This document shows, piece by piece, positions 1 to 60,197 of a DNA stretch of 60,727 nt (positions are counted from its first letter, which is position 1; every line of letters starts with the position of its first letter). This DNA comes from Candidatus Iainarchaeum sp. GTDB lineage: Archaea > Iainarchaeota > Iainarchaeia > Iainarchaeales > Iainarchaeaceae. The notes beneath the pieces are model-generated. The model searched no databases, was not told the DNA's origin, and saw only the letters and a program-made list of their open reading frames with translations. The translations under genes and the position numbers were made by a program. The DNA is taken from positions 1 through 60,727 of the forward strand of contig JACQPB010000025.1 in assembly GCA_016202305.1 (NCBI GenBank), read 5' to 3'.

Positions 1-1574
1 ATATTTTCTGGATTTTCTAAAATTACTTTACTCGCAGTTAGTTTTTTCTTAACGCTTTCATTTATTTTTTCTTTAAACTCTTCCGGGAGTTCTTCTTCTT
101 GAATTTCTAAAAATGCTTCTAATTGCTCTTTTTTCAAATGCAATTCTTCAAGCCTTGGTTGGTAAACGATTTTAACCGTAAAACCGTCTCGTATTGAATC
201 CGTAATGAAGTATTTGTCAAAGTATTTTTCCTGCGGCGGATAACTGAAAGCTTCATAAGTGTCTTTTCCACCTTTAGCGATTGGTGTTCCGGTAAAGGCA
301 AAGAAAAAAGCTTTCCTCAAAATGTTTCTCATTTGCGCGGCCATTGTTCCATATTGGGTTCTGTGACCCTCGTCAACGAATGCCAGTACATTTTTCCTGT
401 TGAGTATTGTGCTGTTTGTTTTTGAGGCCGCTTCCAGTTCTTTTTGCAGCGCGTCCAGTTCTTCGGCCCTGAACTTGTGGATTAGTGTTATCATTATTCC
501 GCGTTTTCCTTTTCCCTCGTCGTGCTTCAATGTTTTTCTTAGCGCTTCAATCGAATCAATGACTTCCACTCTTGGAATGTCCAATGCGTTGAATTCCTGC
601 TCTAGTTGTATCTGTAAATCCTGCCGGTCCACGACAAAGAAGATTGTTGGGTTCTCCAGTATTTCGTTTCGGTAGAGTTTGTTTACTGCAAAAATCATTG
701 TCAGGGTTTTTCCAGAACCCTGCCAGTGCCAAATCAGGCCCTTGTTTTTGTCTTCAGTTCCGTTAAAGTTATCCAAGACTCTTTTAACTATTTTTTCCGA
801 TGCACGGTACTGCATGTATCTTGTGATTACTTTGGTCGAGCTTCCGAATTCAATCCTGAAAAACAAGTAATTTCTCAAAATGTCAAGCAGCCTGTTTGGG
901 GCCAGCATTTCAATCGTGGAGTCGACGGGATCGTTTTGTTCTTGTTCTTTCCACTCGTAAATCCGGGTTTCTTCTTCCCAAGGAACGATTGCAAAGTATT
1001 TGACTATTTGCTCGGCCGCCACTCCAATCTGGACGTATTTATAGAGTTCTGGAATTTTTTGCTCATATTCTTTTATTTGTTTGTAGGCATCAAACCACGA
1101 TTCGGAAAAGCTGGCGGGGTTTTTGCATTCAATGTCAACCAGCGGGATACCGTTTACGTATAGCATGATGTCTGTTCTGATTTCGCCTCTGCCACTGTTG
1201 TACACCACTTGCCTGCTGGCAATAAAGTCGTTTTGTTCCGGGTTTTCATAATCAAACAGTTTAACGTATTTTACCAAGCGGTCTTTTTCAAATTTGATTG
1301 GCACGCCCTGCTTGAACAAATTAAGAACGCCCTTTATTCCCTCAACAGTCGAACTTTTCAGTTTTAACTCGTTCAGCACTTTCTTTATTTCCTCGTCAGT
1401 GATGTCAAGTTTGGCGTTTAATTTCTTTAGTGACCGAATTAAATTTGGAATAAGCAATGGCTCTTCAAAGCTCTCGCGTTCCAATTCGTCCGCCGGAACA
1501 AAACGCCAGCCCTTGGCCTTAAGCTTTTCAATGAAGTAATCTTCTGCAACAGACTTCTCGCTAAAGTGCGGCAT
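1..1574 (-). CDS. hsdR: Type I restriction enzyme R subunit (HsdR), N-terminal ~524 aa; gene continues beyond window start
   Basis: Not in the ORF track because there is no stop in the window. My reverse-strand translation from ATG 1574-1572 gives MPHFSEKSVAEDYFIEKLKAKGW..., with helicase motif I 'HWQGSGKTLTM' and motif II 'AFVDEGHRTQYG'. It is the last gene of the hsdM/hsdS operon. Confidence 0.9.
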   Translation of the reverse strand, partial: MPHFSEKSVAEDYFIEKLKAKGWRFVPADELERESFEEPLLIPNLIRSLKKLNAKLDITDEEIKKVLNELKLKSSTVEGIKGVLNLFKQGVPIKFEKDRLVKYVKLFDYENPEQNDFIASRQVVYNSGRGEIRTDIMLYVNGIPLVDIECKNPASFSESWFDAYKQIKEYEQKIPELYKYVQIGVAAEQIVKYFAIVPWEEETRIYEWKEQEQNDPVDSTIEMLAPNRLLDILRNYLFFRIEFGSSTKVITRYMQYRASEKIVKRVLDNFNGTEDKNKGLIWHWQGSGKTLTMIFAVNKLYRNEILENPTIFFVVDRQDLQIQLEQEFNALDIPRVEVIDSIEALRKTLKHDEGKGKRGIMITLIHKFRAEELDALQKELEAASKTNSTILNRKNVLAFVDEGHRTQYGTMAAQMRNILRKAFFFAFTGTPIAKGGKDTYEAFSYPPQEKYFDKYFITDSIRDGFTVKIVYQPRLEELHLKKEQLEAFLEIQEEELPEEFKEKINESVKKKLTASKVILENPEN

Positions 1575-2379
1575 TTTGATCACTTCTTGCTGGTTTTGAT
1601 TTTTCTAGATATTGTTTAAAACTAGCCGAATCCAAAATTTCTTTTATGATGTCAATAGACCACACCTTGGCCAGTCCAGTATTTTCTTCAAAAATAATTC
1701 TCGGTCGCCTTGTTTGTACGCTAACCGCAATGTCTTGATAAGGAATGTATTCACTACAAATTCCAATAAATCTTCCTAAATGAGTGGCTCCAAATTGTAT
1801 TCCTTTTTCCTTAATTGCAATAGGCGATGGTTTCAACAATACTGGGCTTCCACTATTTCCAGGAAAAACGCTGGCATCTATATAAAAAGTCCTGTCTTCT
1901 TCAATTCGCGAAATTATTCCGTTCCGTACAATAGGCTTGATTTTTGCAGTGGATAAACCAGGCTGGAAACCCAAAAGGAATATATCATCCGCCACATTCA
2001 ACTCCTTTATATCTAAAAAAGAAGCGGATTCTATTGTTTTGACGTCATCATTTTCAACATCTAAACCAAATCCAATAACAGCAATATCAACATCTTTATT
2101 AGCATGGAAATGCCATTCAGCACTGAAACCACGTTTAATATCATCTATTTTTCTTTCGATAACTGTTCCACTCTTTGAATTAAAAGCTGCAAACAAGTTT
2201 TCCCTAAATTTTCCATTCTCATCGATAATCACATGTTTGCAAGTAATTAAACAAAACACGCCCGAAACCTGCAAAAGAGCCCCCGTACCAATCTGAATTT
2301 TTTTCGCCCCCTCTTGGTCTTTTATTTCTTGACCAAGATAAACGACTGTTTTTTGCCAATCAGGAATTAACCAACTCAT
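1561..2379 (-). CDS. Cytoplasmic trypsin-like (chymotrypsin-fold) serine protease
   Basis: 272 aa with a catalytic triad in canonical order: His 'ITCKHVI', Asp 'KDVDIAVIGF', Ser 'FPGNSGSPVL'. No signal peptide. ATGA overlap with the upstream hsdS half and a 14-nt overlap with the hsdR start. Confidence 0.7.
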   Translation of the reverse strand: MSWLIPDWQKTVVYLGQEIKDQEGAKKIQIGTGALLQVSGVFCLITCKHVIIDENGKFRENLFAAFNSKSGTVIERKIDDIKRGFSAEWHFHANKDVDIAVIGFGLDVENDDVKTIESASFLDIKELNVADDIFLLGFQPGLSTAKIKPIVRNGIISRIEEDRTFYIDASVFPGNSGSPVLLKPSPIAIKEKGIQFGATHLGRFIGICSEYIPYQDIAVSVQTRRPRIIFEENTGLAKVWSIDIIKEILDSASFKQYLEKSKPARSDQNAAL

Positions 2380-3002
2380 GAGTTCACCCTCTTCTTTCCA
2401 GTCAACAAATCATTCATCAAACCCCGCTTGATTCGCTCAAGCTTGTGTTTTTGAGTAGTTTGAAGTGATAGTTTTTTGTCAAGTGTGGAAAACACTTCAA
2501 CAATTTTTCTTTGTTCCTCAATTGTTTTGGGAACAAAAATTTCGGTTTTTCCAACCAAAGTTGTGTTCAAATTCCCCTGTGTTCCAGATTGCTTCTTTCT
2601 TAAAAAATCAGTCTCAATTGATTGAAGAGCATAGAACAAATATTCTCTATCATACTTAGTGTCATCAATATTTCCAAACAGGACAAACCCATCGTGGATA
2701 CAAGCGGGGATATTAACAATTATTGGTTTCCCTATCGTCGCACAAATACTCATTATCAAGTCGCCTTTATTGACTGAAACACTTTTTGACGCGCCCAAGT
2801 CGGATAAATATTGACTTGTCTTGTTTAGATATTTGTAAGAGGAGGTTACATCCTCAATCCTTATCCAGCCTCTCCCAGAATCCGAAAAATATGCTTTGTT
2901 TAGTATTGGTCTTGGAGACGCACCCCTCCTTATTGTCGCTATTTCAGAGAGTTTTACTTTGCGTAAACCATTTCCGTCGAACAGTTTTTTCATGACGCCC
3001 AC
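2376..3002 (-). CDS. hsdS: Type I R-M specificity subunit, C-terminal half (TRD2 + distal conserved helix)
   Basis: 208 aa. TRD-like body 'IRRGASPRP...', then the HsdS conserved helix 'EEQRKIVEVFSTLDKKLSLQTTQKHKLERIKRGLMNDLLTGK'. It begins at a GTG only because the upstream frame is broken at the GA repeat. Confidence 0.75.
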   Translation of the reverse strand: MGVMKKLFDGNGLRKVKLSEIATIRRGASPRPILNKAYFSDSGRGWIRIEDVTSSYKYLNKTSQYLSDLGASKSVSVNKGDLIMSICATIGKPIIVNIPACIHDGFVLFGNIDDTKYDREYLFYALQSIETDFLRKKQSGTQGNLNTTLVGKTEIFVPKTIEEQRKIVEVFSTLDKKLSLQTTQKHKLERIKRGLMNDLLTGKKRVNS

Positions 3003-3577
3003 CTTGAGCCGTTCGACTGCTCGTCTCTCTCTCTCTCTACGAGGCTAATCGCATCATCGACGGAAGAAAGAATATCTGAGATGGATTGTTGTTCTGTCAG
3101 TGATGGAAGAAGAATTTTAAGTTTTGCCAAATCGGTTCGTAGAACGCCTTTTATCGTGCTTCCTTGTGCAAGTGATTTAATTTTTTGCTGGTCTTTGGCT
3201 AGTTGCCAGTAAACAAATTCGGGCAATGCTTTAGATTTATCCAAAATAAGCCCAGTTAAATCTTGGCTAATTGCAACATCAATTTTGTTGATAGCCACCT
3301 TTCCAATTCCAACCCTTGTAGCTACAAGTACGTTATCTTTAGGGACAAGGTTGCTGGCACTTTTTTCCAAACCCTTTTTTGTAATATATTTCTGGCCCGC
3401 AACTATTTTTCTGCCATTGATATGGGCGCTTGTCATCCAAGGTATTTCACCGCCCCAATAATCTTTATGTGCAGTTGAGGGGGTGCCACCACCAATCATA
3501 TCAGAACATAGTAAGCCAAGTTCTGTTGTTTGCCAAGCTTTTGGCAGTTGCTCATTTTGAATTGTTTTGCTGGTCAT
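2990..3577 (-). CDS. hsdS: Type I R-M specificity subunit, N-terminal half (TRD1 + start of central conserved region), ends out of frame
   Basis: 195 aa with 'GGGTPSTAHKDYWGGEIPW' and 'LPSLTEQQSISDILSSVDDAISL', typical of HsdS. The tail 'VERERDEQSNGSRWAS*' follows the GA repeat and looks frameshifted. Confidence 0.75.
   Translation of the reverse strand: MTSKTIQNEQLPKAWQTTELGLLCSDMIGGGTPSTAHKDYWGGEIPWMTSAHINGRKIVAGQKYITKKGLEKSASNLVPKDNVLVATRVGIGKVAINKIDVAISQDLTGLILDKSKALPEFVYWQLAKDQQKIKSLAQGSTIKGVLRTDLAKLKILLPSLTEQQSISDILSSVDDAISLVERERDEQSNGSRWAS
3024..3038. repeat. (TC)7T simple-sequence repeat ((GA)n on the coding strand) at the junction of the two hsdS halves
   Basis: Direct read of tcgTCTCTCTCTCTCTCTacg. 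Coding strand reads GTA GAG AGA GAG AGA GAC. Confidence 0.95.
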
Positions 3578-4173
3578 TTTTCAACCCTCGTCAAATTAAA
3601 TGTCCCGCTCGTTAGGGGTTTTCTGTTGGTGAAATAATTTCCTTGCAAGGCATTCTGATTTTTCATGTAGACTTCGACAGTTCCAATGTGTTCTTGGATA
3701 CCTTTCGCTGTCGCTTCCGGCTTATTGGTGTATGAGTAAACCAGTTTCTTTCTGGATTGATTAAACCCATGAATCATGGCGCTGAAGCTTTCGGAATAAG
3801 AATGGTAAAATTGTGAATCCACCATGATTTTTGAAAATGTCTGATTTATGGTAATCTTAACAGTGAATTTTTGTGGCTGAGATCTATTATATGTTGAGTT
3901 TCCTTCTCCTTTCCAGACCCCGTTAAAATCCGGAACGTTCAGGAGTTGGCTAAATGGCTTAATACGCCACAGAAAGTTATCGAATGCATAGAAAATTATC
4001 GCAAATATTACGAACGGTGATGTTGAAATGAAATACCCTACAAAGACATTGGATTGATTAAGCGAATCAATCATTGGTGAAATAATCAAGGCAAGATATG
4101 CACTAATGACCGCAATGAACACTATACTTTCAAGTCTTTTCTGCGAGTTCAGTGAATATTCGTGCATGTTCAT
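3574..4173 (-). CDS. 2-TM protein with beta-strand-rich C-terminal domain; candidate Cap15 / SMODS-associated 2TM-beta effector
   Basis: 199 aa. Two N-terminal hydrophobic helices ('IVFIAVISAYLALIISPMI', 'VFVGYFISTSPFVIFAIIFYAF'), then a ~130-aa polar, beta-prone domain. ATGA overlaps with both neighbours, and it lies directly downstream of the CD-NTase-like gene. Confidence 0.5.
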   Translation of the reverse strand: MNMHEYSLNSQKRLESIVFIAVISAYLALIISPMIDSLNQSNVFVGYFISTSPFVIFAIIFYAFDNFLWRIKPFSQLLNVPDFNGVWKGEGNSTYNRSQPQKFTVKITINQTFSKIMVDSQFYHSYSESFSAMIHGFNQSRKKLVYSYTNKPEATAKGIQEHIGTVEVYMKNQNALQGNYFTNRKPLTSGTFNLTRVEK

Positions 4174-5051
4174 TCACCGTTCCATAACTGTATACACGCG
4201 CCAATAAATGCTTTGCAGTCAGTGGCATTCCATTGTGTTTCTTCTTGTCCGAAAAGCCTCGTTATTCCGTTTTGGCAGTTGAAACTGTTTAAATTTTCAG
4301 TATTTTCGTTTAGCCATTTGAGACAATTGAAAACGCTGGTTTGCAAGCTTGTAGTGTAGCAACTATTTGGAGCATTGTATAGCAGACACTCGACAAAATA
4401 GGATGGGGCAACACGGTTGTTCAGTTTTCCTTCGTCTACAAGTTTATTTCGAGCGTTTTTGAAGATGCGGACTACTTTTTTGTAAAGGTCGCCTGTAGAT
4501 TGGTGTTTTTTCACACCATTGTCAATATGTTGTTTTGGAAAATTATAGATTAGTGATCCATCCGGTTTCTTTATAGATACGCCCTCAGTGTAATGAGCTT
4601 GATTAGCTTCTGAAAATGAATGATAAACCCTATGTGACAGGCAAGGAATCACATCCGCATTCAAATATCCGTTTCCCAAATTCAGTTTTATGCTCTTGTT
4701 CCCCGATCCAGTAACTCTGTTTCCAAATAAATTTGTTAAATCATTTCGGAGTTCGCTATGGCTATATGCAGAGGTTGAAGTTTTTGTACTGTATGTGGTT
4801 TTTTCAGGCTCCGTCAGCTTAGTTTTGTCTGAAGTCCAGACACTTTTAAGCATTACGACAATGTCGACATCACTGTTAGCCCTAACATGCGTAGTATTTG
4901 CATAAGAGCCCTGCAAAAAAATGCTGAGTTCGTTTTTCTTCGCATATGCTGAATTGTTTATTATATTTTTTACTGTGTCGTATGTTCTGGCAGAACCACT
5001 ATCCGCTCCAGTGTGGCCCCATGTTTCGAGTTGCTGCTCACTTAGTGTCAA
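4170..5051 (-). CDS. CD-NTase / SMODS-type nucleotidyltransferase (CBASS-like cyclase candidate)
   Basis: 293 aa. Pol-beta NTase motifs 'FLQGSYANTT' (GS), 'SDVDIVVM' (DxD) and third acidic 'LNADVIPC', plus a 'PSYFVECLLYN' helix. TTG start abuts the hsdM stop. Confidence 0.65.
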   Translation of the reverse strand: MTLSEQQLETWGHTGADSGSARTYDTVKNIINNSAYAKKNELSIFLQGSYANTTHVRANSDVDIVVMLKSVWTSDKTKLTEPEKTTYSTKTSTSAYSHSELRNDLTNLFGNRVTGSGNKSIKLNLGNGYLNADVIPCLSHRVYHSFSEANQAHYTEGVSIKKPDGSLIYNFPKQHIDNGVKKHQSTGDLYKKVVRIFKNARNKLVDEGKLNNRVAPSYFVECLLYNAPNSCYTTSLQTSVFNCLKWLNENTENLNSFNCQNGITRLFGQEETQWNATDCKAFIGACIQLWNGE

Positions 5052-6854
5052 TTACTTCAACCCCTTCAAATAGCCCTCAATTTTCTTGTCCACTTCCTCG
5101 TCTTCTTTTTTGAGCTCATGGTATTCTTTCCATTCCTTGTCAACATCAATGTCTTCCTGTTTTTCTTCCGGATAAACGTAAAGCGAAACGTTGAGGTTGT
5201 AATCGTTCTGCCGGATTTCGGACGCGTTAACCACACGGCAAAAGCCGGGCGAATCTTTGAATTCTTGGAATGCTTTGACGATTTCGGCAATGTTTTTTTC
5301 GCCCAGGCGGTTAAGCTTTCGCACTTCTGGGTGTTTTTCAAACTTTTCCGAGGCATTGATAATCAAAATCTTGTCCTTTCTGGCGGGGGCTTTTTTCTTG
5401 TTCAGGAAAATGATGGCTCCTGGCGCGCCGGTGTTGTAAAAGAGCTTTTCAGGTAACAAGAGCACGGCTTCAATCAAATCACCTTGCAGGTTACTGTCTC
5501 CGTCAATGATTTTGGTTCTGATTGCCCGTTCCTTCCCGCCCCGAAACAGAGCCCCATTGTCTATTACAATGCCAACTTTTCCGTTTTTGTCATTTGAAGA
5601 TGCGAGCATGTGCTGTATCCAAGCCCAGTCAGCGGATTGCTTTGGAACAAATCCAAAAGGAAAGCGCTGTTTCCAGAATTCGCCTTTTTTGAGCACGCTT
5701 TCATCGTAGCCGTCCTGGTTCCAGGGCGGATTGGCAATTACAATGTCGAATTCTTTGATTGTTTCCTTTTCCTTGAACTTCGGATGCAATAAAGTATCGC
5801 CAAAGGCGAGGTTTGCATTGCGGATGTCGTGCACGTACGTGTTCATTTTGGCGAGCGCAATTGTTTTTTGGTTGACTTCCTGGCCAAACAAGAACAATTT
5901 ATCGGCTTCCTTCTTGCCCTTATTGTGCTCCACGTGCTTGTATGCTTCAATCAGCATGCCGCCGGAGCCCGCGGAGCAGTCATAAATGCTTTGGCCGGGC
6001 TGCGGGTCCAAAACTTCTATGAGTTGCTTGATTACTTCGCGGGGCGTGTAGATTTCGCCTTCTTTTGCCTTGCTTGGAGCAAAGTATTTGAGAATCCATT
6101 CATACGCGTCTCCCAAAATATCGGCGGAGACGTGGCTGAGTTTTTTTTCGCTGAAAAGCTCGATAAGCTGGCGCAGTATTTCGGAATTCTCGCGGCTGGT
6201 TGTGAACTGGATAAAATCCGCGTTGTCAAGAATGTCTTTGAGTTCCGGGTTTCTCTCGGCCAAGGTCTTTAGGGCTTTGGAGAATTTTTCGGGTTGTTTT
6301 TCCACATCCTTGCGGATGTTGTCCCACAAGAATTCGCGGGGCATGTCAAAGTCGTGGAAGGTCGCGCTCTCCGCTTCTTTTTCCGCTTCCTTTTCGTTCA
6401 AGCCGTCTTCAATAGCGTCTTTCTTCGCTTTTTGGAATTCGTATTCCCATTTGTCGCTGATTCGCTTGTAGAATAAAAGTATGAGTATGAATTTGTAATC
6501 AACGCGCGTGCGAATCAAGTCAGCAGCTTTTTTGAGGATACTGTCAATGTCGGTTCGGGTTAGGCCGTTTTGCTTGATGAAAAGGTGTTCGCCGATTATT
6601 GCACTTTTGCTTTTGAGTTTGTAAACCCGCTTACGGGCATCAACAGGGTCAAGTTCGGTTGTGAGCCAACCAGCTTTTCGCAGTTCGGAAATGAAAACAG
6701 GAACCTCTTTATCAGCGTCCTTGTTCTTTTCAACCAGAATTTTTGTCGCCGTTTCCAAGCCGAAAGGAGAATCCTTGAATTCCGCCCAAAGCAAGTCATA
6801 GCGGACTTCAAGCCACTTAGGCAACTGTGCCTCTATCTCTACCATAAAGAACAA
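5052..6854 (-). CDS. hsdM: Type I R-M N6-adenine DNA methyltransferase subunit
   Basis: 600 aa. SAM motif 'YDCSAGSGGMLI', catalytic 'IANPPWNQ', and an HsdM N-domain 'LFYKRISDKWEYEF'. The likelier start is ATG 6845 (MVEIEAQ...), downstream of a TATA box. Confidence 0.9.
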   Translation of the reverse strand: MFFMVEIEAQLPKWLEVRYDLLWAEFKDSPFGLETATKILVEKNKDADKEVPVFISELRKAGWLTTELDPVDARKRVYKLKSKSAIIGEHLFIKQNGLTRTDIDSILKKAADLIRTRVDYKFILILLFYKRISDKWEYEFQKAKKDAIEDGLNEKEAEKEAESATFHDFDMPREFLWDNIRKDVEKQPEKFSKALKTLAERNPELKDILDNADFIQFTTSRENSEILRQLIELFSEKKLSHVSADILGDAYEWILKYFAPSKAKEGEIYTPREVIKQLIEVLDPQPGQSIYDCSAGSGGMLIEAYKHVEHNKGKKEADKLFLFGQEVNQKTIALAKMNTYVHDIRNANLAFGDTLLHPKFKEKETIKEFDIVIANPPWNQDGYDESVLKKGEFWKQRFPFGFVPKQSADWAWIQHMLASSNDKNGKVGIVIDNGALFRGGKERAIRTKIIDGDSNLQGDLIEAVLLLPEKLFYNTGAPGAIIFLNKKKAPARKDKILIINASEKFEKHPEVRKLNRLGEKNIAEIVKAFQEFKDSPGFCRVVNASEIRQNDYNLNVSLYVYPEEKQEDIDVDKEWKEYHELKKEDEEVDKKIEGYLKGLK

Positions 6855-6869
6855 TTTCCCAGCAAAAAG

Positions 6870-6878
6870 TATTTAAAG
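6870..6878 (-). promoter_or_regulatory. TATA-like box (CTTTAAATA on minus strand) ~24 nt upstream of hsdM ATG 6845
   Basis: Direct read. The spacing fits an archaeal leaderless promoter. Confidence 0.35.
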
Positions 6879-7098
6879 CGATGGCTTATTTCATAAGTAA
6901 AATTCATTTTAGCTTATATATTGGTAGTAATCTAAGCATCTTGCAAGTTTACTTGACGGCTGTTTATAAGGCCAATTCAACCCTTCATCTCCGAGGGCCA
7001 TTGACTGAAAGCGCTTTGCCTGGCTTCAGTCCGTGGTGCCATAGGTCCGGTGTAGGGCCTCGCCTCTTCACTGGGGGTAACGCACCCTCACTGGCCGT

Positions 7099-7809
7099 TC
7101 AGAGCCTGAATGGCGAGAAGTCCGTGTCGTAGTCGTAGTAATCCATTTTCTCCTCTTTCTTGAGGAAGCCCGTGATGGCGTACGTTGCCGGCGTGAAAAG
7201 GACTTCGACTCCGACCTTGAAAGCGTAGTTTGAAACCACGAGCGCTATCAGCGTTTCCGTGGGCAGGACTCCTATGAACGCTATTGCCGCGAACACTGTT
7301 GTGTCAACCGCCTGCCCGGCTATTGTCGAGCCTATCGTCCTCTGCCAGAGGTTCCTGCCCCTGCTCATTACCTTCATTTTCGCGAGCACGAAGCTGTTCG
7401 TGAATTCGCCAGCGAAGTACGCTATCAGGGATGCCAGCACGAGCCGCGGGACAAAGCCGAGTATAGTGTCATAAGCGGCCTGGTCAGGCCAGCCGCCAGC
7501 CGCAGGAAGCGCTCCCACCACAAGGAAAACCGCCGACATTAGTGCAGCGGACGCGAACCCCGTCCATATGACTTTCCTCGCGCGCTTGTAACCATACACT
7601 TCGGTGAGTATGTCCCCGAAGATGTATGCGAGCGGGAAGAGTATGGTGCCGCCGTCGAACACCAGCGGGCCGAGCTCCACTATTTTCACGGACGCTATGT
7701 TGGAGATGAGCAGCACAGCCACGAAGAGGCCCACGATTATGGGATAGAACCTTAGCTCGCCGGGCCGCCTTTGCTCATTCCGTTCTGCCTGTTCCATAAA
7801 GTTTCTCAT
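7099..7809 (-). CDS. yhhQ: Queuosine-precursor transporter family protein (YhhQ/DUF165, VUT family)
   Basis: 236 aa polytopic membrane protein with 'FDGGTILFPLAYIFGDILTEVYGYKRARKVIWTGF'. The real start may be the second ATG (MEQAERN...). Confidence 0.8.
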   Translation of the reverse strand: MRNFMEQAERNEQRRPGELRFYPIIVGLFVAVLLISNIASVKIVELGPLVFDGGTILFPLAYIFGDILTEVYGYKRARKVIWTGFASAALMSAVFLVVGALPAAGGWPDQAAYDTILGFVPRLVLASLIAYFAGEFTNSFVLAKMKVMSRGRNLWQRTIGSTIAGQAVDTTVFAAIAFIGVLPTETLIALVVSNYAFKVGVEVLFTPATYAITGFLKKEEKMDYYDYDTDFSPFRL

Positions 7810-7960
7810 AGTAATCCTTCGTTATATGGCCTATCTCGGCCCAGGCCGGGATAGCCGCCTTGTATCTTCAGGTACGGGGCCCAGTGCCCGATGGGCATCG
7901 GGTCGCTACCAACAAATATTGCGCCCTTCCGAGGCGCACTCTCGGACGAAACGGTTGTTT
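7810..7960. repeat. Repeat family A, copy 1 (~151 nt non-coding element with outward TATA box)
   Basis: About 93% identical by manual alignment to 39613-39763. Contains hairpins GGCCTATCTCGGCC/GCCGGGATAGCC, GTATCT/AGGTAC, CCCGATG/CATCGGG and GCGCC/GGCGC. Confidence 0.85.
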
Positions 7961-7975
7961 CTCACTTTCCCTTAA

Positions 7976-8824
7976 TCAAATTTCTTTTGACCCTGACTTT
8001 TCCCTTATCCTTTTTGCACCCTCGGCCTTTTCAAGGTAATTGCCGCCTGAAACAACGCTCTTTCCAAGCTTCTTTTCTATGTTCCTCCTTGCCTCCCCGG
8101 CAACGCTTCCGCCGTCATTCGCGTCTGTTTTGAGGCGATGGAATTCCCGCGAGTCCTTCTCCCTTGTTATCCTCGTGGTCGTGGCCTCACCAAGCATTGT
8201 CAGGATAAGCTCTAAGTCATCCATGTGGTCGCGCAGGTTCTGTGTTGAGAGGCCCTTGTGTTTTTTATATTCGCTTGGGGTCATGCCGAATGCGGCTTTG
8301 GATATTTCCGCGGTCAGGATTGAGTAGGCCGCATCCGTTTTCGCGCCCCTTCTCTTCCATTCGCCGGTAAGCTCGTCCCTTACGGCTATTCCGCGGACCC
8401 TTTTCTCAATCCACTCGTCCGAATAACCCTTTTCGTGGTAGAGCTCCTTCATGCGCTTCTGGGCGAGCTCCGGGTCATCTATTTCCTGCACCCGCTCATA
8501 ACCGACCTTTGCTAGCCATAGCTTGAACGGCTCGGCTTTCGGGGAGGGGATTGACTGTATTATCCTAAAAGTCCCTTCAGTGCTGGCACAGTTCATGTTT
8601 TGGCGCCCGCCTTGGGTGGTGACAGAAAGGGTATGTACAAATTGTACCCACCCTTTGGAAAGCTCTTCATCCCTTTGCCTCATCTTATTGATATACTGCT
8701 TCGGGTCTGTAGAATCAGTAAGGGCTGTCACTATATCCTCAATTGCAAACCACCACTCCTCATTGTGCCACGCCCTGCGGATTTTCCTTCCCTGAAAAAC
8801 AGCCAATGCATTTTCCGCAGTCAT
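7976..8824 (-). CDS. Bro-N / DinD-like (DNA-damage-inducible protein D family) protein
   Basis: 282 aa. N-terminus 'FQGRKIRRAWHNEEWWFAIEDIVTALTDS' resembles a Bro-N domain. The C-terminal 'RDHMDDLELI' region resembles DinD/RhuM-type proteins. Confidence 0.55.
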   Translation of the reverse strand: MTAENALAVFQGRKIRRAWHNEEWWFAIEDIVTALTDSTDPKQYINKMRQRDEELSKGWVQFVHTLSVTTQGGRQNMNCASTEGTFRIIQSIPSPKAEPFKLWLAKVGYERVQEIDDPELAQKRMKELYHEKGYSDEWIEKRVRGIAVRDELTGEWKRRGAKTDAAYSILTAEISKAAFGMTPSEYKKHKGLSTQNLRDHMDDLELILTMLGEATTTRITREKDSREFHRLKTDANDGGSVAGEARRNIEKKLGKSVVSGGNYLEKAEGAKRIREKSGSKEI

Positions 8825-9035
8825 GCCTATTCGTCACTTCCTATTGCAATGTAGAATCTTTTGGAACTTTTGTGAACTATCGGTCAGGGAAGCGCTATGG
8901 TTTCTTGCTTTATCAAACTGCCGTGTCCAGTAAGGTCAGCAGGCTTCCTGCCCACGAACTTTATTGCTCCACTGCTTTATATACCCAAGCAGACACCTCG
9001 TTGCCGGTGCGGCAAATCCGCCGGAAGCTTTGAAG

Positions 9036-9180
9036 CGGGCCCGGGGGGATTTGAACCCCCGACCCCCTGCTAGCCTCCCCTTTTATTCTTTTTCTTTTCC
9101 ATTAACGCTTTTCTTTTTCTTCCCAAGAAAAAGGAAAGGGTTAGAAGGCAGGTGCTCTATCCAAGCTGAGCTACGGGTCC
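9036..9180 (-). tRNA. tRNA-Arg(TCT) with ~70-nt intron in the anticodon loop (about 9071-9140)
   Basis: Minus-strand read: GGACCCG-TA-GCTCAGCTTGGATAGAGC-A-CCTGC-CTTCTAA-[intron]-GCAGG-GGGTC-GGGGG-TTCAAAT-CCCCC-CGGGCCC-G. One A3:C70 mismatch, no encoded CCA. Confidence 0.8.
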
Positions 9181-9272
9181 ATGCTTTTCAGCGGGAACAT
9201 GCTGTCGTGTTCCGGCAATAAATAGGGCTTCAATGCATTAAAAGGCTTTCTTGCCGGTTCCGCCTTTTCACG

Positions 9273-10427
9273 TCATTTTCCGGCCTTTTCCAGCACGCAT
9301 AGCATCTCCATGTGGCCGGTGTGGGGAAACTGGTCGAAGGCGCGCAGGTATGTAACCTCGAAGCCCTCTATCTGCTTGATGTTCTGCGCGAGCATTGCCG
9401 GGTTGCAGGAAACATATATTATCCTGTCCGGGCCGAGCCTCAGCATGCGCCTTATCGTCTTCGCGTTCAGGCCAGAGCGCGGCGGGTCCGCAATCACCGT
9501 GCCGAACTCATGCGGCAGGGTCTTCAGCACCTCATCCACGTTGCCTGCAATGAACTCCGCATTCCTTATGCCGTTCATGGCCGCATTCTCTTTTGCTCCC
9601 GCGACGCTTTCCCCGGATATTTCCACGCCGAGCACTTTGCCGCACTTTTCGGCCACAGCCATGCTTATGGTGCCCACCCCACAGTAGAGGTCGAGTACGC
9701 TTGCCCCGCTCGGCACGAATCCCCTCACGATTCCGAAAATCCTCTCCGCGCTTGCCGCATTGGTCTGGAAGAACGTGTTGGCCCTTATTGCGAATTCTTT
9801 CCCGAGAATCTCCTCGCGGATTGCCTCTTTCCCGAAAATATTCACGGTTTCGCCGTGCGCGTCGTCGCTCCATGTCCTGTTCAGCAGCAGGTTCACGCTC
9901 TGCACTCCGGAAGACAAAAGCTCCGCGCATATTCCGGCTGCGCTTTCGTCTATCTCTCCGAAGAAAGTGAAGTTGAGCATCTGCTCCCCCGCGCGGCTCT
10001 CCCTTATTGTCACGTACCCGAGGCCTTTCCTTCTCTTCATTACGTCGGCGCTCGCGATGCCTGCTTTTTGCAGCAGTCGCGCTGTCAGCCTTGCTGTGGC
10101 GTTCGCCTTTTCGCTGAGGAGCCAGCACTTTCCGAGCGCGAAGTTTTCCGAGTGGTCGTCCCTTCTCCTGTACCCTAAAGTGCCGTCCATGTATGAGAGG
10201 TCTGCCTTGTTCCTGTAGGCGAATTGCGCAGGCGCCGCCTCCATTTCCACCTCTTTCCCGAACAGTGCCCCGAGGTATTCCTTTTTTGCCGCGAGCTGGC
10301 CTTCGTATGAAAGCCCCATGAGCGGGCACCCGTTGCATTCCTGCTTCTGGTGCGCGCATTCCGGCTCGTGGCCGTGCAGTTGCGCCAATCCGGCGGCAAT
10401 GCGCTTCAGCTCGTCTTTCTGCTTCAT
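9273..10427 (-). CDS. RNA (uracil-5-)-methyltransferase, TrmA/RumA family
   Basis: 384 aa. N-terminal Cys cluster 'ECAHQKQECNGCPLM', SAM motif 'VLDLYCGVGT', and 'DPPRSG' plus 'YVSCNP' motifs. Confidence 0.8.
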   Translation of the reverse strand: MKQKDELKRIAAGLAQLHGHEPECAHQKQECNGCPLMGLSYEGQLAAKKEYLGALFGKEVEMEAAPAQFAYRNKADLSYMDGTLGYRRRDDHSENFALGKCWLLSEKANATARLTARLLQKAGIASADVMKRRKGLGYVTIRESRAGEQMLNFTFFGEIDESAAGICAELLSSGVQSVNLLLNRTWSDDAHGETVNIFGKEAIREEILGKEFAIRANTFFQTNAASAERIFGIVRGFVPSGASVLDLYCGVGTISMAVAEKCGKVLGVEISGESVAGAKENAAMNGIRNAEFIAGNVDEVLKTLPHEFGTVIADPPRSGLNAKTIRRMLRLGPDRIIYVSCNPAMLAQNIKQIEGFEVTYLRAFDQFPHTGHMEMLCVLEKAGK

Positions 10428-56463: not shown

Positions 56464-56538
56464 TTGTTAACTTGAAGTTGTTATCTTACATATTTGGTGC
56501 TATCTAGTATATAAATGTTACTTTGGCCGGTTAAATAG

Positions 56539-59262: not shown

Positions 59263-59402
59263 AATTAATTTGTTACTATTAAGTAGTGACTACTTAGGTA
59301 TTTAAATGTTTGTTTTGGTTAGGAAAACTGTATTAAGGGGTTTAGGTGCATATAGTATAGCGAACAGAAATCACTGGGGCGGTTGTTTTGGTTGATGAAA
59401 CT

Positions 59403-60197
59403 ATGAGAATGGGTTTGGGTGCTTCCGAGTCAAAAATCCTCTCGGACTTGGCAGCCGAAGGAAAGACCGTTTTCTTGATTGAAGAACTTGCCGAAAAAAC
59501 AAGTTCAAAGGCGATGGCGAGAAAAATAGCCAGCACCCTTGCAAAAAAGAAGTGGATAGAGCGCCTGACCAAAGGGATTTACATGATACTGGAGCTTGCG
59601 GCCGGGAGCAGCCCGAAATGGTCTGAAGATTCGTTCTACATTGCCTCGAAACTGGCAAAGCCATATTACATTGGCTACCTCTCAATGCTCAACTATTATG
59701 GATGGACAGAGCAGCTGCCCGTTACCGTCATGGTGGCGACAACAAAGGCTACGAGAAACAAGAAAATCCTCGGCGTGAACTACGAGTTTGTCGTGCTCTC
59801 CAAAAAAAAGTTTTTCGGGTACAAGGAACTGAACATAAGAGGCCACACAATCATGGTTTCGGACCCTGAAAAAACTATTGTTGACGCGCTCGACAATCCC
59901 AAGTATTGCGGTGGCATTGACGAGTTAGCAAAGGCTGTAGCCAATGCTAAAATAGACTGGCGCAAAGCAATAGAATACGCTGGCAAAATCGGGAATGGCG
60001 CAGTGTTCAAGAGGATGGGCTTCTTAATAGAAAAAATGGGCGTTCCGGTGCCAGAGGAAACCGTTGAAGCAATCAGGGAAAAAATAACGAAAGGCTATGC
60101 CCCGCTCTACCCCGGTGCAGGACCAGAAGGTAAGTATGACACGAGATGGAACATAATAGTAAACTCCAGATTCTCCAAAGAAAGGGTGATTGCATGA
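59403..60197 (+). CDS. AbiEi-family antitoxin / transcriptional regulator
   Basis: wHTH 'SESKILSDLAAEGKTVFLIEELAEKT' and 'LTKGIYMI', plus a C-terminal AbiEi-like domain 'PYYIGYLSMLNYYGWTEQ'. Track start is TTG 59388. Confidence 0.65.
   Translation: MRMGLGASESKILSDLAAEGKTVFLIEELAEKTSSKAMARKIASTLAKKKWIERLTKGIYMILELAAGSSPKWSEDSFYIASKLAKPYYIGYLSMLNYYGWTEQLPVTVMVATTKATRNKKILGVNYEFVVLSKKKFFGYKELNIRGHTIMVSDPEKTIVDALDNPKYCGGIDELAKAVANAKIDWRKAIEYAGKIGNGAVFKRMGFLIEKMGVPVPEETVEAIREKITKGYAPLYPGAGPEGKYDTRWNIIVNSRFSKERVIA

What the first reader, a model, noticed from the sequence alone, without database searches (positions are those of the whole stretch)
3574..5051. CBASS-like CD-NTase + 2TM effector pair nested between hsdM and hsdS of one translationally coupled type I R-M operon
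Seen: seven minus-strand ORFs (6854 to 1) have no intergenic space. There is a TAA|TTG abutment at 5052/5051, ATGA overlaps at 4173/4170, 3577/3574 and 2379/2376, and a 14-nt overlap at 1574/1561.

ORF 4170-5051 has the CD-NTase/Pol-beta catalytic layout (GS in 'FLQGSYANTT', 'SDVDIVV', third acidic 'LNADVIPC') and a 'PSYFVECLLYN' helix as in SMODS enzymes. ORF 3574-4173 has two N-terminal TM helices and a ~130-aa beta-prone domain, which is the architecture of SMODS-associated 2TM-beta/Cap15 effectors.

Established: a CD-NTase plus a membrane effector makes a minimal (type I) CBASS abortive-infection module. An abortive module wired into a type I R-M locus is known for PrrC in the E. coli prr locus.

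Inference: restriction and a cyclic-nucleotide suicide module are co-transcribed and may be functionally coupled, for example as a back-up that fires when R-M is neutralised. I am not aware of this nested gene order being described, least of all in an archaeon.
Basis: partly seen in the sequence, partly recalled or inferred. Interest (0 to 1): 0.82.

Follow-up and report, generated by a model that had tools for sequence, protein, structure and literature searches.

The report
CBASS pair nested in R-M operon
A two-gene cyclic-nucleotide suicide defence (CdnE cyclase plus Cap15 membrane effector) really does sit inside an archaeal type I restriction-modification operon, and the same layout recurs in its few relatives, but it is a new example of the already described habit of defence genes nesting inside other defence operons.

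Summary
On the minus strand, hsdM, a CD-NTase, a Cap15-like effector, hsdS, a trypsin-like protease and the 5' part of hsdR follow one another with no intergenic space.

- **Gene identity:** The CD-NTase is a clade-E enzyme (PADLOC cyclase 2e-103; Foldseek TM 0.85 to RmCdnE). The effector is Cap15 (Pfam Cap15_CD_rec 5e-27; PDB 7n34 1e-9). Together they form a minimal type I CBASS.
- **Conserved nesting:** All four relatives with 54-61% identical cyclases and enough context have the pair between hsdM and hsdS. Other defence cargo around it varies (Shedu, PDC-S02, WYL). These cyclases form one clade (NJ 30/30).
- **Wider family:** None of about 156 loci with 33-42% identical cyclases is nested.
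- **Host:** An archaeon, shown by a tRNA intron and TATA boxes. The operon is a low-GC island.
- **Not shown:** Co-transcription is likely but not proven. No evidence supports PrrC-like functional coupling.
- **Novelty:** Embedding of defence genes in type I R-M operons is published (Payne et al. 2024; PrrC, DarTG2, TgvAB), so this is a new member of a known kind.
- **Side finding:** hsdS is split by an (AG)7 tract, against an in-frame (AG)6 in all relatives.

The parts
6870..6877 (-). Candidate archaeal TATA box (TTTAAATA), 24 nt upstream of the hsdM ATG at 6845. It is the likely single promoter of the operon and would give a leaderless or near-leaderless mRNA.
   Evidence: TTTAWATA occurs 9 times in the window against 2.8 expected, and no shuffle out of 100 reached 9. 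Within the operon there is only this site and one inside the protease ORF (1879-1886). Its function is inferred.
5052..6854 (-). hsdM, the type I R-M methyltransferase. The ORF runs from TTG 6854, but the probable start is ATG 6845. The roughly 95 N-terminal residues before HsdM_N match no family.
   Evidence: Pfam N6_Mtase 8.6e-106 and HsdM_N 5e-14. PADLOC MTase_I 8.8e-98. A 597-aa gene is called in the identical contig L001. Residues 1-94 have no Pfam hit.
4170..5051 (-). Clade-E CD-NTase (CdnE), 293 aa, TTG start abutting the hsdM stop. Catalytic residues G48-S49, D61, D63 and D133 are intact. Lid residue Asn170 aligns with RmCdnE N166.
   Evidence: PADLOC Cyclase PDLC00788 2.4e-103, covering 1-291 of the protein and 1-295/297 of the model. 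PDB 6e0k 4.8e-53 for the single sequence and 1.5e-110 for the profile. AF2 pLDDT 86.6 and Foldseek TM 0.85.
3574..4173 (-). Cap15-type effector, 199 aa. Two N-terminal TM helices (about 12-38 and 42-64) plus a C-terminal cyclic-dinucleotide receptor domain (79-196).
   Evidence: Pfam Cap15_CD_rec 4.7e-27, covering 2-122 of 122 profile positions. PADLOC 2TM effector 9.6e-48. PDB 7n34 Cap15 1.4e-9. Hydropathy. The AF2 model is too poor to use (pLDDT 45).
2990..3577 (-). hsdS N-terminal half (TRD1), 195 aa, ended prematurely by the frameshift.
   Evidence: Pfam Methylase_S 7.2e-28. The same 195-aa product is called in the independent contig L173.
3025..3038 (-). (AG)7 dinucleotide tract in the central conserved region of hsdS. 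It has one unit more than the in-frame (AG)6 found in all four relatives.
   Evidence: Removing one AG gives a 399-aa HsdS that aligns end to end with the relatives' HsdS proteins of 380-422 aa. The same (AG)7 is present in L173.
2376..3002 (-). hsdS C-terminal half (TRD2). The ORF runs from GTG 3002. The likely restart is ATG 2993, which overlaps the upstream TGA (ATGA) and is preceded by AAGGTGGG.
   Evidence: Pfam Methylase_S 1.7e-19. A 205-aa gene is called from this ATG in L173. Sequence context.
1561..2379 (-). Trypsin-like serine protease, 272 aa. It is separate embedded cargo in the hsdS-hsdR slot and matches the candidate defence family PDC-S45.
   Evidence: Pfam Trypsin_2 1.1e-10. 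PADLOC PDC-S45 4.3e-19. The four relatives carry other genes in this slot instead.
1..1574 (-). hsdR, 5' part (524 codons). It is cut by the end of the contig.
   Evidence: Pfam HSDR_N 9.4e-39 and SWI2_SNF2 1.4e-62. PADLOC REase_I 1.9e-72.

Best explanation
**What it is.** A complete minimal (type I) CBASS, made of a clade-E CD-NTase and a Cap15 membrane effector. It is carried as embedded cargo in the hsdM-hsdS slot of a horizontally acquired type I R-M operon in an archaeon.

**Expression (inferred).** The whole string is transcribed from one TATA-box promoter in front of hsdM. It is translated by stop/start coupling, so the CBASS genes are expressed whenever the R-M genes are.

**Mechanism (inferred from characterised homologues).** On infection, CdnE makes a cyclic dinucleotide. 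The lid residues suggest it contains uracil plus a purine, like the cUMP-AMP of RmCdnE. The Cap15 beta-barrel binds it and oligomerises, and the two TM helices breach the membrane. The infected cell dies before virus is released.

**Relation to the R-M system.** Restriction is the first layer and CBASS is an independent second layer. The link between them is genetic: shared promoter, shared transfer and shared retention. It is not a physical guard mechanism.

**The operon as a scaffold.** The operon has two cargo slots, M-S and S-R, that exchange defence genes by recombination.
For: - **Identity of the two genes:**
- **No accessory genes:** no Cap2/3 or HORMA/TRIP13 genes lie next to the pair; its neighbours are hsdM and hsdS.
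- **Lid residues:** Asn170 aligns with RmCdnE N166, C259 with C252, and T272-Q-W with E265-Q-W. This is not the R/Q-x-W motif of di-pyrimidine synthases (read against PMC10442399).
- **Packing and promoter:** there is no intergenic space. A single consensus TATA box lies 24 nt upstream of the hsdM ATG.
- **Conserved order:** hsdM-[0-2 genes]-CdnE-Cap15-hsdS-[1-3 genes]-hsdR-YgjP-like occurs in all four related operons, with abutting or overlapping junctions.
- **One clade:** the nested cyclases are monophyletic (30/30 NJ replicates).
- **Free-standing relatives:** cyclases of 33-42% identity, mostly paired with Cap15, occur outside R-M operons in about 156 other loci. The module is therefore autonomous elsewhere.
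- **Variable cargo around the pair:** Shedu SduA, PDC-S02 and WYL in relatives, and PDC-S45 here.
- **Mosaic backbone:** between L008 and L011, hsdM is 94.5% and hsdR 90% identical at the nucleotide level, but the 5' part of cdnE, the hsdS TRDs and the S-R cargo are replaced.
- **Horizontal acquisition:** the operon is 41% GC against 52% for the rest of the window.
- **Literature on embedding:**
Against: - No transcript data exist. Internal promoters inside coding sequence cannot be excluded. A T7 tract at 4915-4921 and three T6 tracts on the sense strand could attenuate archaeal transcription.
- The activating signal of this CdnE is unknown.
- The product is predicted from three residues only.
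- The Cap15 fold could not be modelled (pLDDT 45).
- hsdS is frameshift-split and hsdR is incomplete in the window, so it is not known whether the R-M layer is active.
- The pair keeps its position immediately upstream of hsdS across operons whose HsdM proteins are only 66-76% identical. This fits simple linkage, but it would also be expected if the two systems were functionally coupled.
Confidence: 0.7

Rival explanations
1. PrrC-like guard. CdnE (or Cap15) is held inactive by contact with the HsdM/HsdS/HsdR complex, or it senses its state. It fires when a viral anti-restriction protein neutralises restriction. The nesting would then be functionally required.
For: - The pair keeps the same position directly upstream of hsdS in five diverged operons while the other cargo varies.
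- The nested cyclases form a distinct clade.
- There is a precedent in PrrC/EcoprrI, as summarised by Payne et al..
Against: - Close homologues of both genes work as free-standing two-gene systems in about 156 loci.
- CdnE-Cap15 systems are autonomous in Staphylococcus and are triggered by viral RNA (PMC10686824).
- The 5' part of cdnE has been replaced on a nearly identical R-M backbone (L008 against L011). That is hard to reconcile with a co-adapted protein interface.
- Conserved position is equally explained by common descent.
Confidence: 0.1
2. Neutral 'genomic sink' adjacency. The CBASS pair landed in a permissive spot, has its own internal promoter(s), and shares no regulation with the R-M genes.
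For: - Defence islands accumulate insertions (Makarova 2011, as cited).
- In 10-14 of the 80 genome loci a type I R-M system lies merely next to a free-standing CdnE-Cap15 pair.
Against: - There is no non-coding space at any junction here, and junctions are equally tight in the relatives.
- No consensus TATA box precedes cdnE, cap15 or hsdS.
- hsdS and hsdR lie downstream, so transcription from the hsdM promoter must pass through the pair unless hsdS has a promoter inside cap15.
Confidence: 0.12
3. Decaying island. The operon is a recent low-GC import whose R-M part is already broken by the frameshifted hsdS, and the CBASS genes are leftovers that no longer function.
For: - The GC contrast is 41% against 52%.
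- hsdS is frameshifted.
- The operon sits at a contig end.
Against: - All other ORFs are intact, and the catalytic residues are conserved.
- The frameshift lies in a conserved repeat tract and leaves both halves translatable with an ATGA restart.
- The same allele is present in an independently assembled contig that differs by one SNP, so it persists in the population.
Confidence: 0.06

Closest known systems
Type I CBASS with CdnE + Cap15 (for example Staphylococcus schleiferi Ssc-CBASS with CdnE03-Cap15, and the EfCdnE, ClCdnE and LpCdnE operons)
   Same: The two-gene architecture is the same: a clade-E cyclase followed by a 2TM + beta-barrel Cap15, with no accessory genes.
   Different: Those systems are free-standing bacterial operons. 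This one is inside an R-M operon in an archaeon. Sequence identity to the solved CdnEs is only 27-34%. The lysines of CdnE03 that bind the activating RNA (K9, K13) have no counterpart in the N-terminal helix here, so the trigger is unknown.
Rhodothermus marinus CdnE, a cUMP-AMP synthase (PDB 6E0K/6E0L)
   Same: It is the best match by sequence and by fold: 4.8e-53, TM 0.85, 33-34% identity. The GS/DxD/D catalytic residues are the same. The lid Asn (N166, here N170), Cys252 (here C259) and a non-R/Q residue before xW are shared.
   Different: The product of this enzyme has not been measured. T272 stands in place of E265.
PrrC anticodon nuclease in the E. coli prr (EcoprrI) locus
   Same: It is an abortive-infection gene embedded, in the same orientation, inside a type I R-M operon.
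   Different: The proteins are unrelated: an ABC-ATPase/anticodon nuclease against a cyclase plus a pore-former. PrrC sits between hsdS and hsdR, not between hsdM and hsdS. Its physical control by the R-M complex is demonstrated, whereas here it is untested.
Embedded defence systems of Payne et al. 2024 ('guilt-by-embedding'), DarTG2 in the EPEC type I RMS, and TgvAB in the V. cholerae VPI-2 type I RM
   Same: One defence system lies between the genes of another, on the same strand and in one operon. The protease here matches PDC-S45, and a relative's cargo matches PDC-S02. Both of those families were defined from such embedded genes.
   Different: The cargo is a CBASS. I did not find CBASS named as type I R-M cargo in the texts or supplements searched. 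The host lineage is archaeal. The same cargo position is retained in five diverged operons.

Membership tests
CD-NTase (cGAS/DncV-like nucleotidyltransferase), clade E | Pol-beta-type catalytic residues: GS, DxD and a third Asp | tested here: met
   G48-S49, D61, D63 and D133 are invariant in 26 homologues.
CD-NTase (cGAS/DncV-like nucleotidyltransferase), clade E | Full-length sequence or profile match to known CD-NTases | tested here: met
   PADLOC Cyclase 2.4e-103 over 1-291. PDB CdnE chains at 4.8e-53 for the single sequence and 1.5e-110 for the profile. The precomputed Pfam family is CD_NTase_C, PF26305. Pfam SMODS alone is below its cut-off, 19.3 against 26.5 bits.
CD-NTase (cGAS/DncV-like nucleotidyltransferase), clade E | CD-NTase fold, closest to clade E structures | tested here: met
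   AF2 pLDDT 86.6. The top 12 Foldseek hits are all CdnE, with TM 0.75-0.86. CdnD, CdnC, cGAS and DncV score lower. No formal clade phylogeny with reference sets was made.
CD-NTase (cGAS/DncV-like nucleotidyltransferase), clade E | Synthesis of a cyclic oligonucleotide | not testable with these tools
   The product is only predicted from lid residues.
Cap15 effector | C-terminal cyclic-dinucleotide receptor beta-barrel domain | tested here: met
   Pfam Cap15_CD_rec 4.7e-27, covering 2-122 of 122 profile positions. PDB 7n34 Cap15 1.4e-9, with residues 70-198 aligned to 2-129 of 131. This is a sequence-level test only. The AF2 model is unusable (pLDDT 45).
Cap15 effector | Two N-terminal transmembrane helices | tested here: met
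   Kyte-Doolittle segments at 12-38 and 42-64. PADLOC 2TM effector models match the full length at 9.6e-48. Pfam Cap15_TM is only weak (0.0077, below its cut-off).
Type I CBASS (minimal, two genes) | Cyclase and effector adjacent, without Cap2/Cap3, HORMA/TRIP13 or other signature accessory genes | tested here: met
   The flanking genes are hsdM and hsdS. In relatives the extra neighbours are SduA, PDC-S02 and unknowns, none of them a Cap accessory.
Type I CBASS (minimal, two genes) | Protection against virus by abortive infection | not testable with these tools
   This needs expression and virus challenge.
Type I restriction-modification system | hsdM, hsdS and hsdR present in one locus | tested here: met
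   N6_Mtase 8.6e-106; Methylase_S twice; HSDR_N 9.4e-39 and SWI2_SNF2 1.4e-62.
Type I restriction-modification system | Intact single HsdS with two target-recognition domains, and a full-length HsdR | tested here: not met
   hsdS is split into 195-aa and 205/208-aa ORFs by the (AG)7 frameshift. hsdR is cut by the contig end at codon 524. Activity of split HsdS halves is possible but was not tested.
Embedded defence system (in the sense of Payne et al. 2024) | Genes lying between the genes of a multi-gene defence system, on the same strand | tested here: met
   The same holds in relatives.
PrrC-type guard of a type I R-M system | Homology to PrrC (ABC-ATPase N-domain plus anticodon nuclease) | tested here: not met
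   No such match was found. The genes are CdnE and Cap15.
PrrC-type guard of a type I R-M system | Latent toxin held by the R-M complex and released by an anti-restriction factor | not testable with these tools
   This needs biochemistry or genetics.

The most novel reading that the evidence does not exclude
The nesting is functional. In this archaeal operon lineage the CdnE-Cap15 pair acts as a guard of the type I R-M complex, analogous to PrrC but using cyclic-nucleotide signalling. It fires when a viral anti-restriction factor disables restriction, or when the phase-variable hsdS changes state. That would explain why the pair stays immediately upstream of hsdS while all other cargo turns over.
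Probability: 0.1. Interest if true: 0.75.

Novelty: new member of a known kind. Interest (0 to 1): 0.35.

Why it matters
It adds CBASS to the list of systems carried inside type I R-M operons. It also shows that a small lineage of archaeal R-M operons works as a two-slot carrier that moves several defence systems together between genomes of very different GC content. The locus is compact (about 7-10 kb), so it offers a tractable test of whether embedded systems are merely co-expressed or truly coupled. That question was left open by the 'guilt-by-embedding' work. It does not change what is known about how CBASS or type I R-M work.

Tried and rejected
- **Pfam SMODS/NTP_transf_2 on the cyclase:** only sub-threshold hits.
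- **Structure of Cap15:** the word-indexed homologue search gave only 3 relatives. The 4-sequence AF2 model had pLDDT 45, so I ran no fold search on it.
- **Genome scan (GTDB representatives):** no close relative was returned, only cyclases of 34-42% identity.
- **Metagenome scan:** only four close loci. Three duplicate loci already held, and one is too short to be useful.
- **Viral contigs:** nothing.
- **Naming the organism:** cluster look-up gave no names. Named ArgG neighbours are a mix of DPANN archaea and bacteria at 62-64% identity. Further Pfam and NCBIfam scans of window proteins were uninformative. The host is therefore called an archaeon only on the tRNA intron, the TATA boxes and a relative's RNase P p30.
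- **Search for an att site or repeat at the island border (6800-9300):** only short chance-level repeats.
- **Sigma-70 promoter and intrinsic-terminator scan:** promoter-like sites were at shuffle level. 12 of the 14 terminator-like sites lie on the non-coding strand. The scan does not apply to an archaeon in any case.
- **KNTase/MNT antitoxin reading of the cyclase:** rejected.
- **The protease as a CBASS accessory:** rejected. It is absent from all relatives and matches the single-gene candidate PDC-S45.
- **Literature:** no text naming CBASS as cargo of a type I R-M operon was found in five searches or in Payne et al.'s supplements. Figures are not searchable.
Full report
**1. The observation**

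- TAA|TTG at 5052/5051.
- ATGA overlaps at 4173/4170, 3577/3574 and 2379/2376.
- A 14-nt overlap at 1574/1561.

The quoted motifs are all present. Three points need correcting.
- There are six genes, not seven. ORFs 2990-3577 and 2376-3002 are halves of one hsdS, split by a frameshift.
- hsdM probably starts at ATG 6845 rather than TTG 6854. An identical metagenome contig has a 597-aa gene call.
- hsdR runs off the contig end.

The block from 1 to about 6900 has 41% GC. The rest of the window has 52%. The operon is therefore a horizontally acquired island.

**2. What the two genes are**

*ORF 4170-5051.*
- It matches a PADLOC CBASS cyclase model end to end at 2.4e-103.
- Pfam SMODS, Polbeta and NTP_transf_2 hit only below their cut-offs. 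Homologues carry the precomputed family CD_NTase_C.
- G48-S49, D61, D63 and D133 are invariant in 26 homologues.
- Against solved structures the best match is Rhodothermus marinus CdnE, at 4.8e-53 for the single sequence and 1.5e-110 for the family profile.
- An AF2 model (pLDDT 86.6) superposes on RmCdnE at TM 0.85. The top twelve Foldseek hits are all clade-E enzymes.
- The alignment puts Asn170 on RmCdnE N166, the uracil-selecting lid residue. It puts C259 on C252, and T272-Q-W on E265-Q-W. This is not the R/Q-x-W motif of di-pyrimidine synthases (PMC10442399).
- By inference, the product is a uracil-plus-purine cyclic dinucleotide.

*ORF 3574-4173.*
- It matches Pfam Cap15_CD_rec over the whole profile at 4.7e-27.
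- It matches PADLOC 2TM effectors at 9.6e-48.
- It matches the crystallised Cap15 domain 7n34 at 1.4e-9.
- It has two hydrophobic segments at 12-38 and 42-64.
- Its AF2 model failed for lack of alignment depth.

No Cap2/3 or HORMA-type genes are present. The pair is therefore a type I CBASS.

**3. The surrounding operon**

- hsdM, two Methylase_S halves and the N-terminal 524 residues of HsdR are unambiguous.
- Between hsdS and hsdR lies a trypsin-like protease. It matches PDC-S45 (4.3e-19), a candidate family defined from genes embedded in R-M, BREX and DISARM loci.
- A consensus archaeal TATA box (TTTAAATA, 6870-6877) lies 24 nt upstream of the hsdM ATG. The motif is enriched in the window, 9 hits against 2.8 expected. 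No copy precedes cdnE, cap15 or hsdS.
- One promoter, a leaderless mRNA and translational coupling are therefore the simplest reading. This is inferred, not shown. A T7 tract and three T6 tracts on the sense strand could attenuate transcription.

**4. Host**

- A tRNA at 9036-9180 has a 72-nt insertion right after the anticodon, the usual site of archaeal tRNA introns.
- Together with the TATA boxes, this indicates an archaeon.
- A related locus encodes the RNase P subunit p30.
- Named ArgG neighbours include Woesearchaeota, Nanoarchaeota and Aenigmarchaeota, but also bacteria, at 62-64% identity. The lineage is unresolved.

**5. Relatives**

*Close relatives.*
- The exact cyclase occurs only in two short metagenome contigs with the same gene order.
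- Nine clusters share 54-61% identity.
- All four with usable context (P0002, P0005, P0006, P0007) have hsdM-[0-2 genes]-CdnE-Cap15-hsdS-[1-3 genes]-hsdR-YgjP-like, with abutting or overlapping junctions.
- The extra genes in these operons include Shedu SduA, PDC-S02 (DUF1016), a WYL protein, DUF4145 and unknowns.
- Identity to the window is 65-67% for HsdM, 64-69% for HsdR, 55-61% for CdnE and 41-49% for Cap15.
- The ten nested-type cyclases are monophyletic against 54 others in 30 of 30 NJ replicates.

*Wider family.*
- 80 genome loci and 76 further metagenome loci carry cyclases of 33-42% identity. In most of them a Cap15 gene follows, so the pair stands free.
- About 10-14 of the genome loci have a type I R-M system nearby. 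None is nested.
- No relative is on viral contigs.

*Mosaicism and transfer.*
- L008 and L011 share hsdM at 94.5% and hsdR at 90% nucleotide identity.
- They differ in an inserted SduA gene, the first ~370 nt of cdnE, the hsdS TRDs and all S-R cargo.
- Operon GC is 29-36% in the relatives. It sits in flanks of 31% GC in L004 and 47-54% in L003.
- The composite operon therefore moves as a unit, and its two slots recombine.

**6. Mechanism and rivals**

*Best explanation (0.7).* This is an autonomous CdnE-Cap15 abortive-infection module, co-expressed with the type I R-M system as an independent second layer. The link between the two is genetic.

*PrrC-like guard model (0.1).* The stable position of the pair allows it. 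Three things weigh against it:
- the many free-standing homologues;
- the known autonomy of CdnE-Cap15 systems;
- the replacement of part of cdnE on an almost identical R-M backbone.

*Neutral adjacency with separate promoters (0.12).* The absence of any intergenic space makes this unlikely.

*Decaying island (0.06).* The intact ORFs argue against it, as does the persistence of the same allele in an independent contig.

**7. Comparison with what is known**

- Embedding of defence genes in type I R-M, BREX, DISARM and Hma operons is described by Payne et al. (10.1101/2024.01.29.577857). They report 96.7% of embedded genes in the same orientation.
- PrrC, DarTG2 between hsdS and hsdR in EPEC (PMC12255303) and TgvAB in V. 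cholerae (PMC11411939) are worked cases.
- CBASS occurs in archaea (PMC12988326).
- I found no text naming CBASS as type I R-M cargo. Figures could not be searched.
- The finding is therefore a new member of a known kind.

**8. Side finding: the hsdS frameshift**

- The hsdS frameshift lies in an (AG)7 tract at 3025-3038. All four relatives have (AG)6 in frame at the same codons, which encode ERE plus Arg or Ser.
- Removing one unit restores a 399-aa HsdS that aligns end to end with the relatives.
- After a +AG slip, in the window and in every relative, the reading frame ends at a TGA. That TGA overlaps the ATG of the conserved Met in G-(I/V/L)-M-(K/R).
- This ATG is preceded by AAGGTGGG, AAGGAGGG or AAAGAGGG.
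- The 45-nt window starting at the tract is the most conserved of 393 windows across five operon genes: 0.89 mean pairwise identity, against at most 0.86 at catalytic motifs. hsdS as a whole is the least conserved gene, at 0.50.
- An independently assembled contig from another run, differing by one SNP, carries the same (AG)7 and the same 195 + 205 aa split.
- This looks like slipped-strand phase variation with a built-in translational restart. Population heterogeneity and methylation were not tested.

Noticed in passing
window 2990-3040 (tract at 3025-3038); relatives L003, L004, L008, L011; L173: hsdS is split by an (AG)7 tract, where all four related operons have an in-frame (AG)6. After a +AG slip, every locus would stop at a TGA overlapping the conserved Met ATG, which is preceded by a GGAGG/GGTGG-like motif. 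The region is the most conserved 45-nt window of the operon. An independent contig has the same (AG)7. This may be a conserved slipped-strand phase switch between a full-length HsdS and two half-HsdS proteins in an archaeon.
   Followed up: partly
window 1561-2379 (-): A trypsin-like serine protease is embedded between hsdS and hsdR. It matches the candidate single-gene defence family PDC-S45 (4.3e-19) and more weakly the protease domains of RT-protease (DRT XI) and LmuA models. Its function is unknown, and it is absent from the related operons.
   Followed up: partly
L003, L004, L008, L011 (operons related to window 1-6854): The related operons carry different cargo in the same two slots. SduA (Shedu) or PDC-S02/DUF1016 plus an unknown gene lie upstream of CdnE. 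WYL, DUF4145 and several proteins with no family match lie between hsdS and hsdR. The unknowns are candidate new defence genes. A YgjP-like metallopeptidase always follows hsdR.
   Followed up: partly
L008 against L011: These two loci have nearly identical R-M backbones (hsdM 94.5% and hsdR 90% nucleotide identity). The first ~370 nt of cdnE are diverged or replaced, while the rest of cdnE and cap15 are 88% identical. A recombination breakpoint therefore lies inside the cyclase gene.
   Followed up: partly
window 6572-6854 (-): The roughly 95 N-terminal residues of HsdM, upstream of the HsdM_N domain, match no Pfam family. They are retained in the relatives' HsdM proteins (564-593 aa). This may be an extra DNA-binding or regulatory domain.
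   Followed up: no
window 9036-9180 (-): This tRNA gene has a 72-nt insertion right after the anticodon, the usual site of archaeal tRNA introns. Rfam found it but ARAGORN missed it. Arms 9103-9121 and 9125-9143 form a 19-nt inverted repeat inside the intron.
   Followed up: partly
window 7976-8824 (-): A gene with a BRO-N domain (Pfam 7.5e-14), a domain typical of viral or mobile-element proteins, lies between the intron-bearing tRNA and the defence island. No integrase or att repeat was found nearby.
   Followed up: partly
window 59388-60197 (+): This ORF has a weak match to the AbiEi antitoxin (NCBIfam 5.6e-7, below its cut-off). It may be another defence or toxin-antitoxin gene at the other end of the contig.
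   Followed up: no
window, whole: The archaeal TATA consensus TTTAWATA occurs 9 times against 2.8 expected. Several copies lie roughly 25-45 nt upstream of ORF starts (for example 6870-6877, 56508-56515 and 59299-59306), which suggests short or absent 5' leaders in this organism.
   Followed up: partly
L003 5197-7063: In one relative, a divergently oriented RloB + AAA_21/AAA_15 ATPase pair (OLD/RloB-type) sits just upstream of the nested operon, and a RadC gene sits downstream. The operon therefore lies within a larger defence island there.
   Followed up: no
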